A DNA stretch of 63,256 bases, filler included, from Collodictyon triciliatum (taxonomy: Eukaryota), in assembly GCA_043381765.1 (NCBI GenBank). It is 4 parts of 4 records of this genome, joined end to end, with 100 filler letters (N's around TTAATTAATTAA, not from the genome) between each part and the next. Parts side by side here need not be neighbours in the genome. Positions count along the whole stretch, not along the records: positions 1 to 30,117 come from JBHJMP010000945.1; 3 more parts are not named here. One strand, 5' to 3'. Positions 1,478 through 8,608 of the stretch are shown here, one piece after another. Made by a program: the position numbers and the translations under genes. The notes beneath the pieces were generated by a model that worked only from the letters and a program-made list of their open reading frames with translations, was not told the origin of the DNA and did not search any database. The stretch's first letter is position 1; every line of letters starts with the position of its first letter.

Positions 1478-3871
1478 ATGACTCCATCGACGAGACTAAC
1501 ATTACAACATAGGCCAAATAAAAGGCGGCAAACAAGAAGAAAGAATCCTCCATCAACCATGGATTATATTCATGCTAAAAGGAAAAAAGGAGAAAACCTA
1601 TGGACAAAGTAACCGACTTACATTCATCAAACGATTGATTCACAAACGAACCATAAATGAATCACAAAAAAACTAGTGTTGTCTTTATTCTGATTTACAA
1701 TCCACTTTCCAAAGGAACATCGACGACATTATAAAAGGAACTGCAAAAGTAGACGAGGTACATACTCTTCTGCAATATATTCAAAGCAACAGTAATATTC
1801 TAATATCCAATTGACATACCGAATGTATATATCAGGATTCTTCAGATGGCGAGATATATGCATACGAAGCACCAAGTAGCTTTTCATTCTTCTTGAAGCA
1901 GTTCGTGCAGGTAATGAGTTATTTTATGATTCGAGGACTGTTGGATGAAGTATTTTTTATATTCAGAATAGAATTTATTAATAAAAGATGCGCGCTGATA
2001 ACTTAGTCATCCCGGTTCAACAACTTTATTCTGTTTTGCATCGTTATCAATTCAGTGTTTTTGGCGCTGCAAGTAGACCCGTCCTTAAATATCGACCAAG
2101 ACTTATTCGAGGTGTTTATTAATTTACAAACCTACACAATTACTAAAAAAAACCACTAAATAATAGTATAATCGCATGTAAATAAAGTGATTCTTATACA
2201 TTAAACTTGGCAAAGGTTATCGACGCTGCCTTCTATGCAATCTACCTGGTTGAGTTTGCTCTGAAAAATCTTGTTAACTTTAAGGTACTTTGCAAGATAA
2301 GATTGCTCACTTTTACACAGCAGCTTACCTAGAATCGATGCCTAGATTATATATATTTATTATACATCAAAAGGGATATTGGAAGAATGGATACAACATA
2401 TTCGATGCTGCTGTTCTAGGATTCTCAACACTATCGCTGTTCAATGTATTCGGCTCGCAGGGAAATTTCAGCTTTTTGAGACTGTTAAGAGGTTAGCATG
2501 TTGCTTTCAAAAAGTTCTCTATTTTTCTTCATAAATTAAAAAGGAAAAGAAGGAAAAAATGCGATAAGCACATTTGCAGCCGAGTGGTGATATTTATTAC
2601 ACTTTTTTTTTAAAAAAAAATACGAAATGTAATAGCAACTAGGGCTTTGCGTGCATTTCGTGGCGTTTCATTTATTCGTCAACTTCAAGTGACTTTTTAT
2701 TCGCAATTTTATAAATTCGACATTAAATGAACGGGTTTACTTTTAACAAGCAGAATCAAAATTCACTTCGTGTAGGTGATTGTTAATGCACTTGCCAAGA
2801 CAACATCGTCCATAGTGAACCTAATAGGGTTGCTGATGCTGATGATGTTTGTATTCGCCATAATCGCCATTAACTTCTTCGGGGAGGTACAAGAGTTGAA
2901 GGACGACTGGGGGACATTGGGAAATGCGATGCTTACTCTTTTCATTTTGGTCACTGTAATTTTAACGAATTCTTTGCTTTCTTGTAGCTTACAACCTGAG
3001 TAGATGAATGTCCAGTTTTGCTCAAACCATCTAAACAAAATTTTCCATCCATCAGGGAGATAACTGGACAGACATCCAGGAGCGTCTTGATAAACATATA
3101 GGATTACAAAGTCGAATATTTTCTGTGATATTCATTTCTTTTGGAAATATTTTTTTCACCAATCTTTTCATTGGTGTTGTGATACAGGTTTGTTAACTGT
3201 TTATTTTTATTTTTGATAAACTTGAAACATAGTGAAATGACAACCGTTGATAGACTTTGAATCGAATAAAGAAAAAAATCACTCCTAGAATCTGGACGAA
3301 GCAACAGAGGAAGACAAAAAAGTACAAAAGCTGAAAAGAGATAAAATGGTTTCAAGGAAAAAAGCGTTTGTTTTGGCCCGCCAGCAAAGAGAGATATCAA
3401 AGCTCTTCGAGCACTATGTTCGTTTAATACACAAACAATATATACAAGGCAATTGAAATTTCCAAAAAAAAGTGAAAGAAAGTGACCCATGAATACTTTT
3501 CTATCTATAGAAGAGAAACAAGAACGTTGATATCCACAGCGCCATGGAGTCTTTGGTGGGCAACATACGACATGATGACCTTGTTCCGATGACTTTCATC
3601 GGATGTAATATAAACTGGATGAGGCTTTACTTGAATGCACTTGAGCATCAGGTCAGACTCATATGCAGTGATAATGAATATGTGATAAATAGACTCAAAA
3701 AGAGGTCGACTTTGTAAAATGTTTTCTCTCACCTTTTAGGAGAACACGATGTACCGGAATCAACAACTTCACTTCGAGGTCGCCTTTACTCTATCGGAAA
3801 TGTTGGATAGAACAAACCAACTTCACCTGAACCAAGCCAAACATCGCCAACATATTGATGGAATGGAGTAA
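1478..3871 (+). CDS. CATSPER3: CatSper3-like cation channel alpha subunit (about 12 exons)
   Basis: GT-AG exons assemble into a 6TM channel: S1 RFNNFILFCIVINSVFLAL, S2 IYLVEFALK, S3 YWKNGYNIFDA, S4 FLRLLRATRALRAFR, pore LTLFILVT-GDNWTDIQERLD, S6 FFTNLFIGVVIQ. The C-tail (KKAFVLARQQREISKL ... LYLNALEHQENTMYRNQQLHFEV) matches the recalled CatSper3-specific tail. The start codon at 1478 is less certain. Confidence 0.85.
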
Positions 3872-3934
3872 TGGCAATCAGCGACCGACGTTAGCCATGG
3901 AGCAAGCAAGTCCACATTATCACAAAATGATTAA

Positions 3935-8000: not shown

Positions 8001-8608
8001 ATATGTTTTGATGGCTTGGGTGTGTGCTTATCTGCTGGGATATCCAAAGACCTCACCATTGCGAATAGACTATCGTCAGGAGCCTTGGAGCGATTGGGAA
8101 TCCGAGGGCTGAGATAGACACTGTCTTTTGCCTTCAGCCCAGCGTGGAAGGCGCTGTTTGCATGCTCGCCGTTTGGGACTGGCGTGGATTGGTCAGAGCG
8201 TCTCGGCAAGGCGGCAAGAGGCGGAATTAATGGAGGGCTGTGGACATTGGGCACGATTATTGGGGCAGACGAAATGCTCTCTTTCGCTGGGGTTTGCAAA
8301 GGAACACTGGGAATGGCGTGTGTGTTGCTTGTGGAGGCCCCTCCAGAAAGGGCTCTGCTTCTGGCCATGGCAACGAATCCCGAGTTTATTCCTGGTCCGA
8401 TTCCACCCGAGCCTGATGGCGTGGAAGCGATGGCTGATTTTCCTGCGTTGCCGGATTTTCTTGCGAGTCTGGACATTTCTTCCCACGCGCTCTGCTGTTC
8501 TCCGGGTCTGTTTGCTCGTCCGAGAAGATTGGAGCTTCCGCTTCGTTGCACAGAGGCAGGAAGGCGAACTTGCACACTCGGCCGGCGGGATGGTGACGGG
8601 CCCACCAT
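5053..8608 (-). CDS. CATSPER4: CatSper4-like cation channel alpha subunit with long disordered N-terminus (multi-exon)
   Basis: S1 HPWFRNFLLLIIILNSVLIGL, S2/S3 FVIEILLKWY..FWRVGWNVFDF, S4 ARVLRVLRVFRAFRTLR, filter YLTQDGWV (TQDGW is the CatSper4 filter), S6 GALYSVCFMTIGTYVFINLIVGITVTNL. The tail QEP..NLENYFLVLSAIEDNL matches recalled CatSper4. Confidence 0.88.
6484..6563 (-). other. Probable U12-type (minor spliceosome) AT-AC intron in the CatSper4-like gene
   Basis: Donor ATATCCGTTT, branch site TTCTTTAAC about 10 nt before a terminal AC. Removing it gives NFGTIGISMFTLYKYLTQDGW with conserved pore-helix spacing. Confidence 0.75.

What the first reader, a model, noticed from the sequence alone, without database searches (positions are those of the whole stretch)
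1478..8608. Tail-to-tail CatSper3-like and CatSper4-like genes in a unicellular flagellate
Seen: two distinct 6TM channel genes converge about 1.2 kb apart, one with a TGDNW filter and CatSper3-type tail, the other with TQDGW and a CatSper4-type tail. Knowledge: CatSper is the sperm flagellar Ca2+ channel, reported patchily outside animals (some zoosporic fungi, an apusozoan, a glaucophyte, a thraustochytrid), and the human subunit genes are unlinked. Inference: subunit identities predate this lineage, and the physical linkage may be a relic of the ancestral duplication or reflect co-regulation.
Basis: partly seen in the sequence, partly recalled or inferred. Interest (0 to 1): 0.7.

Follow-up and report, generated by a model that had tools for sequence, protein, structure and literature searches.

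The report
Paired sperm-channel genes in a flagellate
A single-celled flagellate carries two different pore genes of the animal sperm calcium channel CatSper end to end, within a genome that appears to hold the whole channel kit with extra pore-gene copies, which extends a known ancient family to another lineage but does not show that the pairing itself is ancient.

Summary
Confirmed: two intact, intron-rich 6TM channel genes converge 1,181 nt apart on one contig. The minus-strand gene (TQDGW, about 732 aa) is a CatSper4 orthologue. Its closest named relative is Diphylleia rotans (77% identity in the membrane part), so the host is probably a diphylleid (CRuMs). RNA-like contigs support 7 of its 14 introns, including an AT-AC minor intron. 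The plus-strand gene (TGDNW, about 407 aa) groups with CatSper, apart from bacterial and four-domain channels. It shares no intron position with its neighbour and is 31-32% identical to it, so this is not a recent duplicate pair. Its CatSper3 label rests on elimination and one weak hit. The genome also holds three CatSper1-like genes, one CatSper2, second copies of both window genes, and beta, gamma and delta/epsilon matches, while control genes are single-copy. No evidence makes the linkage ancestral: CatSper3 and 4 lie apart in the animal assemblies listed, and the other copies show no CatSper neighbour. Non-animal CatSper is known. I found no paper on diphylleid CatSper, the linkage or the extra copies. 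This scan earlier noted beta, epsilon and tau genes in this genome, but not the pore genes.

The parts
1600..3871 (+). Gene A, CatSper3-like pore subunit, 407 aa. Exons 1600-1608 (start uncertain), 1677-1757, 1836-1910, 2007-2111, 2216-2284, 2374-2491, 2636-2688, 2776-2955, 3056-3187, 3289-3417, 3511-3651, 3740-3871
   Evidence: Open spliced frame with 11 GT-AG introns; Ion_trans match at 2773-2961; paralogue on C2505 matches exon by exon; no RNA contig covers its exons
2953..3067 (+). Selectivity filter TGDNW of gene A, split by phase-0 intron 2956-3055
   Evidence: the paralogue has TADNW with an intron at the same place
2476..2664 (+). S4 voltage sensor of gene A, 5 arginines at every third position, across intron 2492-2635
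3289..3871 (+). Cytoplasmic tail exons of gene A, CatSper3-like
   Evidence: Top PDB hit mouse CatSper3 (7eeb_C), E=0.31; no match to a CatSper4 tail profile (3.6 bits; best of 200 shuffles 6.9)
3872..5052 (.). 1,181-nt spacer between the two stop codons; A-rich simple repeat near 3960-4200 and one copy of a dispersed 20-nt motif at 4815-4834
5053..8608 (-). Gene B, CatSper4 orthologue, about 732 aa. Exons 8608-8057, 7920-7811, 7721-7670, 7595-7368, 7272-7110, 6987-6909, 6831-6715, 6610-6564, 6483-6419, 6243-6133, 6060-5994, 5913-5726, 5631-5509, 5419-5339, 5268-5053
   Evidence: Open frame; start and first intron inferred; 7 of 14 introns supported by contigs of run X1; 77% identical to Diphylleia P0002 over the membrane part
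6443..6457 (-). Selectivity filter TQDGW of gene B
   Evidence: commonest filter of the CatSper4 reference set
6484..6563 (-). 80-nt AT-AC minor-spliceosome (U12-type) intron just before the pore helix of gene B
   Evidence: ATATCC donor and branch-site-like motif before AC; spliced in an X1 contig; same intron in paralogue C5414; U12 snRNA in the genome, 72.1 bits against a cut-off of 53
6917..6964 (-). S4 voltage sensor of gene B, 6 arginines at every third position
5726..5913 (-). CatSper4-type tail exon of gene B
   Evidence: Top PDB hit mouse CatSper4 (7eeb_D), E=0.0047; finds Diphylleia, Paratrimastix and Oscarella CatSper4

Best explanation
The two genes encode the CatSper3 (probable) and CatSper4 (firm) pore subunits of a vertically inherited CatSper channel in a diphylleid flagellate. 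Shown: intact genes, aspartate filters, charged S4 helices, and CatSper1, CatSper2, beta, gamma and delta/epsilon matches elsewhere in the genome. Inferred from the mammalian complex: one each of subunits 1-4 forms a heterotetrameric, voltage-sensitive, calcium-permeable pore under a beta/gamma/delta/epsilon canopy, most likely in the flagellar membrane, where calcium entry changes the beat. Subunits 1, 3 and 4 were duplicated within this lineage, so more than one channel composition is possible. The tail-to-tail position is most likely a lineage-level arrangement with no shown function.
For: The CatSper group is one side of a starred branch, 98/96. Gene B lies inside the CatSper4 group, 93/84, and with Diphylleia at 100/100. 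The CatSper4 reference profile has mouse CatSper4 as best single-domain PDB hit, E=4.5e-91. C3102 tail: sole PDB hit mouse CatSper2, E=6e-7. C1250/C1600/C2138 tail profile: top of 2 hits mouse CatSper1, E=0.47; these genes have a DD filter and a U12-like donor, and mammalian CATSPER1 is a minor-intron gene. CATSPERB_C is over cut-off on C1500, CATSPERG_C at cut-off on C6252, CATSPERD-E_C on C943 and, under cut-off, C6100. A and B share 0 of 7 membrane-region intron positions and 31-32% identity. One eukaryote: Rieske protein single, RPB2 family on 3 contigs, one full-score eukaryotic SSU match plus one weaker match, two neighbour genes single.
Against: No labelled CatSper3 sequence could be put in a tree: homologue searches scored 0 of 50 and 0 of 65 candidates, and four of five tail queries missed mouse CatSper3 (weak hit only). 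The AU test did not reject a tree holding both gene pairs and Diphylleia CatSper4 together (p=0.17), nor gene B with Diphylleia apart from C5414 (p=0.40), so the duplication date is not fixed. One X1 contig runs unspliced across gene B intron 6611-6714. Adjacency is unlikely by chance in this genome alone (about 0.002-0.004 among 8 pore loci, assuming 15,000-25,000 genes). Flagellar location, calcium selectivity and co-assembly are untested.
Confidence: 0.72

Rival explanations
1. The linkage is a relic of the ancient tandem duplication that made the CatSper pore subunits, or is kept by selection for co-expression.
For: Low prior chance of adjacency. Both genes have exactly one paralogue, as copying a linked pair would give. 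Both paralogue contigs end in low-complexity repeats downstream of the gene, so a second tail-to-tail pair at 2.4 kb or more is not excluded. In Ciona intestinalis both genes are listed on arm 2q, in different chunks.
Against: Different chromosomes or scaffolds in human, mouse, sea urchin, amphioxus and C. savignyi. No shared introns. Convergent orientation gives no shared promoter. The C2505 copy is followed by a tRNA-Thr gene and no CatSper4 exon up to the contig end. The chance figure is post hoc, since the scan picked the pair because it is adjacent.
Confidence: 0.15
2. Gene A is not CatSper3 but a fast-evolving derivative of another CatSper subunit, or a fifth lineage-specific type.
For: AU test p=0.17 for nesting with CatSper4; no significant hit to any labelled CatSper3; asparagine after the filter aspartate, where PMC10120453 gives glycine for CatSper2/3/4.
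Against: Its tail does not match the CatSper4 tail profile; no intron shared with gene B; genes 1, 2 and 4 are accounted for elsewhere; top tail hit is mouse CatSper3; searches found no other CatSper3-like locus than C2505.
Confidence: 0.1
3. Gene A is a split repeat of a four-domain Cav3-like channel, or a bacterial Nav/EukCat-type homotetramer.
For: The exact TGDNW 5-mer occurs in 17 of 94 stored four-domain-size proteins; some bacterial-type loci have TxDxW filters.
Against: Best repeat score 63 bits for motif-bearing and 79 for any four-domain protein, against 136 for single-domain CatSper4-like proteins. The motif-bearing repeats stay with the four-domain group, 98/94. Bacterial-type rows form their own group, 98/94. 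No EukCat sequence was in the trees.
Confidence: 0.03
4. The extra copies come from a mixed assembly or a whole-genome duplication, not from expansion of the channel genes.
For: Fragmented assembly of 14,576 contigs; paralogue identities of 62-88%.
Against: Four control searches found single copies or the expected three; CatSper2 and CATSPERB_C each on one contig. An old genome duplication with selective retention is not excluded.
Confidence: 0.1

Closest known systems
Mammalian CatSper4 (mouse 7EEB chain D; 9UBW chain D)
   Same: TQDGW filter, 6TM layout, CatSper4-type tail; 37% identity to dog CatSper4 over the membrane part.
   Different: About 200-aa low-complexity N-terminal extension shared with Diphylleia; 6 arginines in S4, more than in the dog sequence; an AT-AC intron, whereas CATSPER4 is not among the CatSper rows of the mammalian minor-intron tables; two copies.
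Mammalian CatSper3 (mouse 7EEB chain C, 395 aa)
   Same: Similar length (407 aa), aspartate filter, weak tail likeness.
   Different: Asparagine instead of glycine after the filter aspartate; two copies 62% identical; adjacent to CatSper4, whereas human and mouse genes are on chr5/chr1 and chr13/chr4.
Diphylleia rotans EukProt proteins P013788/P013791 (P0002, P0005), unannotated
   Same: 77% identity to gene B over the membrane part, same N-terminus, 744 against about 732 aa.
   Different: Transcriptome records only, so no gene order; its CatSper3 was not retrieved.
Non-animal CatSper sets in print (Thecamonas, Allomyces, Aurantiochytrium, glaucophytes, Carpediemonas, flagellated fungi)
   Same: Pore subunits plus auxiliary subunits in a flagellated non-animal (passages of PMC5362262, PMC10120453, PMC8516963, PMC13358043).
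   Different: A lineage (CRuMs) not found with CatSper in my searches; linkage and copy expansion not found described. Two CatSper4-like records also exist for Cyanophora, Carpediemonas and Allomyces macrogynus, so duplication is not unique.
Bacterial Nav and four-domain Cav/Nav repeats
   Same: Ion_trans fold; the TGDNW 5-mer recurs in some four-domain repeats.
   Different: Separate groups in both trees; no CatSper tails in 80 of 80 metagenome loci.

Membership tests
CatSper pore subunits | Single 6TM domain with charged S4 | tested here: met
CatSper pore subunits | Aspartate at the key pore position (PMC2572835: absolutely conserved) | tested here: met
   TGDNW and TQDGW; definition
CatSper pore subunits | Groups with CatSper, apart from bacterial Nav and four-domain repeats | tested here: met
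   98/96, 90/96; labelled references were CatSper4 only; no EukCat rows
CatSper complex | Four distinct pore subunits in the genome | tested here: met
   Four lineages in the trees; CatSper2 E=6e-7; CatSper1 and CatSper3 labels weak
CatSper complex | Auxiliary beta, gamma, delta/epsilon subunits | tested here: met
   beta over cut-off; gamma C-terminal domain at cut-off, its beta-propeller family not found; delta/epsilon over cut-off only with neighbouring pieces on C943, under it on C6100
CatSper4 | TQDGW filter, CatSper4 tail, nesting among labelled CatSper4 (gene B) | tested here: met
CatSper3 | Orthology to labelled CatSper3 (gene A) | tested here: inconclusive
   Top hit E=0.31; misses; no reference retrieved
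CatSper3 | Glycine after the filter aspartate (PMC10120453) | tested here: not met
   Asparagine in both copies; a described trait of animal sequences, not a formal family criterion
CatSper regulatory module | sNHE (SLC9C) and soluble adenylyl cyclase | tested here: inconclusive
   Exchanger matches on 3 contigs; the one read looks like an ordinary exchanger; 165 cyclase matches, not sorted by type
CatSper complex | Flagellar localisation, co-assembly, pH- and voltage-gated calcium current | not testable with these tools
   needs experiments
U12-type intron (6484-6563) | AT-AC ends, ATATCC donor, branch site near the acceptor, minor spliceosome present | tested here: met

The most novel reading that the evidence does not exclude
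This flagellate builds several different CatSper channels from an expanded kit (three CatSper1, one CatSper2, two CatSper3, two CatSper4, two epsilon-type subunits), perhaps for different flagella, the feeding groove or life stages. The CatSper3-CatSper4 pair was copied as a linked unit that goes back to the duplication that created the subunits. Its filter ring would carry aspartate (CatSper1) and asparagine (CatSper3) at the position after the filter aspartate, like domains II and IV of Cav channels, if subunits 1 and 3 face each other (order recalled, not confirmed by a call). A culturable protist would then be a model for the ancestral, non-sperm role of CatSper.
Probability: 0.25. Interest if true: 0.72.

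Novelty: new member of a known kind. Interest (0 to 1): 0.46.

Why it matters
CatSper is hard to study outside sperm (PMC5362262 notes the lack of functional heterologous expression), and its role in non-animal cells is untested in the papers I saw. A near-complete set in a CRuMs flagellate, with intron-rich genes and a minor-spliceosome intron, favours old vertical inheritance over the bacterial-transfer view in PMC10120453. It also points to a cell in which the ancestral function could be tested. Extra pore-gene copies contrast with the statement that the complex persisted without duplication from early metazoans to vertebrates (PMC2572835). The linkage would matter only if it recurs in distant lineages.

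Tried and rejected
Homologue searches for gene A: 0 of 50 and 0 of 65 candidates scored; weak evidence, as the tool warns. PDB searches with gene A or C2505 tail pieces: no CatSper hit. ESM Atlas: uninformative for the tail exon, generic Ion_trans for the S5 exon. Alignment A1 was misaligned and not used. Metagenome scan for linkage: 80 of 450 confirmed loci returned, all 28-40% identical, none with a CatSper tail, so linkage outside this genome was not tested on DNA. RNA: no RNA holder on record was listed; one guessed-RNA run was laid; it has no cover on gene A exons or the 5' half of gene B, which says nothing about expression. CATSPERG beta-propeller and CatSper-tau PF15729 found nothing in G000, which does not show absence. 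AU tests rejected neither constrained tree. No overlap or shared flank was found between C2505 and C5414. Exon-by-exon gene models of the six paralogues were not completed; their tree rows are automatic profile projections with 210-416 of 480 columns filled and some edge errors. Cai et al. 2014 (PMC4169769) is not held; I cite it only through other papers. A mixed assembly was considered and is unlikely. No complex or structure prediction was run.
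Full report
OBSERVATION. The window is a concatenation of records; only 1-30117 (G000:C945) holds the pair, with no N between 636 and 30117. Gene A (+) gives an open 407-aa frame over 12 exons and 11 GT-AG introns, ending at 3871. Gene B (-) starts at 8608, as shown by its match to the N-terminus of a Diphylleia protein, has 15 exons and ends at 5053. The stops are 1,181 nt apart. The filters are TGDNW (split by an intron) and TQDGW; S4 carries 5 and 6 arginines. Contigs of one guessed-RNA run show 7 joints that fit 7 of gene B's 14 modelled introns, one of them with two other letters at the junction. 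One contig runs unspliced across intron 6611-6714, and none covers gene A's exons.

MINOR INTRON. Gene B needs an 80-nt AT-AC intron at 6484-6563. It has an ATATCC donor and a branch-site-like motif, is spliced in the run, and recurs in the paralogue on C5414. The genome has a U12 snRNA above the Rfam cut-off. All three CatSper1-like genes have a GTATCC donor at one site in S5. Mouse and human CATSPER1 and CATSPER2 are listed as minor-intron genes, CATSPER3 and 4 are not (PMC6717393, CatSper rows of supplements 1 and 8). Whether the CatSper1 intron is at the same codon as in mammals was not tested.

HOST. The best homologue of gene B is a Diphylleia rotans transcriptome protein, 77% identical over 230 membrane columns. 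Diphyllatea are bi- or quadriflagellate CRuMs (abstract of PMC11603278 in the listing). Controls point to one eukaryote in the assembly: one Rieske locus, RPB2-family matches on three contigs, one full-score eukaryotic SSU match and one weaker match, and two neighbour genes found once each.

IDENTITY OF GENE B. Its tail exon hits mouse CatSper4 first (E=0.0047) and scores 88.1 bits on a CatSper4 tail profile built without the Diphylleia row. In a 60-row tree (60 of 91 aligned rows: 8 own, 20 named, 12 of 35 unnamed, 10 of 14 bacterial-type, 10 of 14 four-domain repeats) it lies in the CatSper4 group (93/84), sister to its paralogue C5414 (100/96), then Diphylleia (100/100). Names for 23 looked-up references include sponge, ctenophore, crinoid, dog, chytrids, Allomyces, Chromosphaera, Gefionella, Ceratiomyxa, three metamonads and two glaucophytes.

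IDENTITY OF GENE A. It pairs with a paralogue on C2505 (62%, 100/100) and stays in the CatSper group, at 90/96 and 98/96 in a 39-row tree that included four-domain repeats bearing the same TGDNW 5-mer. It is not a recent copy of gene B: 31-32% identity, 0 of 7 shared membrane-region intron positions, and a tail that scores 3.6 bits on the CatSper4 tail profile (best of 200 shuffles 6.9). The CatSper3 label is probable, not proven. Mouse CatSper3 is the top of 9 PDB hits at only E=0.31; four other tail queries missed it; two homologue searches scored nothing; and the AU test did not reject nesting with CatSper4 (p=0.17). The label rests largely on elimination.

THE REST OF THE KIT. The Ion_trans search scored 150 of 180 candidates. 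Follow-up gave three CatSper1-like genes with SLDDW (C1250, C1600, C2138; tail profile top hit mouse CatSper1, E=0.47) and one CatSper2 with TLDGW (C3102; sole hit mouse CatSper2, E=6e-7; one copy found). Two CatSper3-like loci and two CatSper4 loci were found. Part of C1600 is masked by N. CATSPERB_C is over cut-off on C1500, CATSPERG_C at cut-off on C6252, CATSPERD-E_C on C943 and, under cut-off, C6100. sNHE and soluble cyclase could not be singled out. Earlier AI notes of this scan describe beta, two epsilon and a tau gene in this genome; my tau search found none. Look-ups for the pore genes or their linkage returned nothing.

LINKAGE. Adjacency has a low prior, about 0.002-0.004 among 8 pore loci if the genome has 15,000-25,000 genes (my assumption), but the figure is post hoc. 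The other six pore genes lie on six contigs, with no second CatSper pore gene found in the stretches fetched; neighbours found include histone, Gemin6, LRR, Ras-family and acyl-CoA dehydrogenase genes. The C2505 copy is followed by tRNA-Thr and 1.7 kb without CatSper4 exons; C5414 has about 0.7 kb downstream. Both contigs end in simple repeats, so a second pair is neither shown nor excluded. In animals the genes are apart: human chr5 and chr1, mouse chr13 and chr4, different scaffolds in sea urchin, amphioxus and Ciona savignyi; Ciona intestinalis has both on arm 2q in different chunks (PMC2572835 Tables S1, S5, S6). Linkage in other protists could not be tested.

MECHANISM. Shown: genes, filters, voltage sensors, partner genes, partial transcript support for gene B. 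Inferred from the mammalian complex (passages of PMC13674862 and bioRxiv 2024.11.18.624146): subunits 1-4 form a heterotetramer under a four-subunit canopy and admit calcium into the flagellum on depolarisation and alkalinisation. All eight copies keep the pore aspartate that PMC2572835 calls absolutely conserved. Both CatSper3-like copies have asparagine at the next position, where PMC10120453 gives glycine for CatSper2/3/4 and describes an aspartate-asparagine pair across the pore in Cav channels. That the same geometry holds here depends on subunit order, which I recall and did not confirm. I put 0.72 on the whole explanation.

WHAT IS KNOWN. Non-animal CatSper is in print for apusozoans, fungi, stramenopiles and glaucophytes (passages of PMC5362262, PMC10120453, PMC13358043) and Carpediemonas (PMC8516963 and its preprint). 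PMC12749960 and PMC6660944 (passages) and PMC11289002 added nothing on this lineage. Cai et al. 2014 was not available, and bioRxiv supplements are closed; large presence tables there or in subscription papers could already list Diphylleia. In one search none of 23 listed papers (26 held) naming diphylleids contains 'CatSper'; nor did the 30 of 79 listed. Searches (20 of 86 listed; 8 of 8) showed no title or abstract on linked or expanded CatSper genes; these were seen as listings only. Duplicate CatSper4-like records exist for Cyanophora, Carpediemonas and Allomyces macrogynus.

VERDICT. Real and correctly recognised. It is a new lineage for a known ancient channel, with two unreported extras: the convergent pair and the pore-gene expansion. 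The relic reading is unsupported but not excluded. Interest 0.46; new member of a known kind.

Noticed in passing
window 30118-30217, 40611-40710, 60364-60463: Separator blocks (44 N, 12 bases, 44 N) join unrelated records; genes beyond 30117 are not linked to the pair.
   Followed up: yes
window 1081, 3253, 4815, 29827, 53286, 58671; L034 5307-5357; L035 29-71: A dispersed motif of about 20-50 nt occurs 6 times in the window (0 expected in 100 shuffles) and twice on C2505. The high contig depth at 4692-4975 probably comes from other copies. Nature unknown.
   Followed up: partly
L050 4894, L049 3560, L051 5912: U12-like GT-AG donor at the same S5 site in all three CatSper1-like genes; mammalian CATSPER1 is a minor-intron gene.
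   Followed up: partly
L087 (G000:C2237:21672-21821): U12 snRNA, 72.1 bits, so this lineage keeps the minor spliceosome.
   Followed up: yes
window 93-494 and 18578-18940: Two similar retroelement-like remnants; the second matches zf-RVT below cut-off, the first had no Pfam match.
   Followed up: partly
window 19427-28724 (-): Two long frames (1,891 and 1,574 aa) that look like one very large protein: WD40-like repeats, many cysteine-rich repeats and a multi-pass membrane end (read by eye).
   Followed up: no
window 15654-17942 (+): Calcineurin-like phosphoesterase (E=4e-24) with an EF-hand-like C-terminal part (by eye).
   Followed up: partly
window 8817-9315 (-): Contigs of run X1 cover DNA just upstream of gene B's start; possibly its 5' UTR or a separate transcript.
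   Followed up: no
G000, many contigs: 100 Ion_trans matches, many in long single frames of 800-900 aa, and 165 nucleotide cyclase matches: large channel and cyclase families.
   Followed up: no
L034 9567-9639 (-): tRNA-Thr(AGT) 300 nt downstream of the second CatSper3-like gene.
   Followed up: yes
P0003, P0019, P0022, P0026, P0033, P0044, P0081: CatSper4-like database records from Paratrimastix, Gefionella, Ceratiomyxa, Chromosphaera, GEM-RC1, Gloeochaete and Aduncisulcus suggest a wider protist range than the papers I read list.
   Followed up: partly
L174 about 2200-6350: A sodium/proton exchanger on C1437 followed by EF-hand-like frames, possibly one gene (by eye).
   Followed up: no
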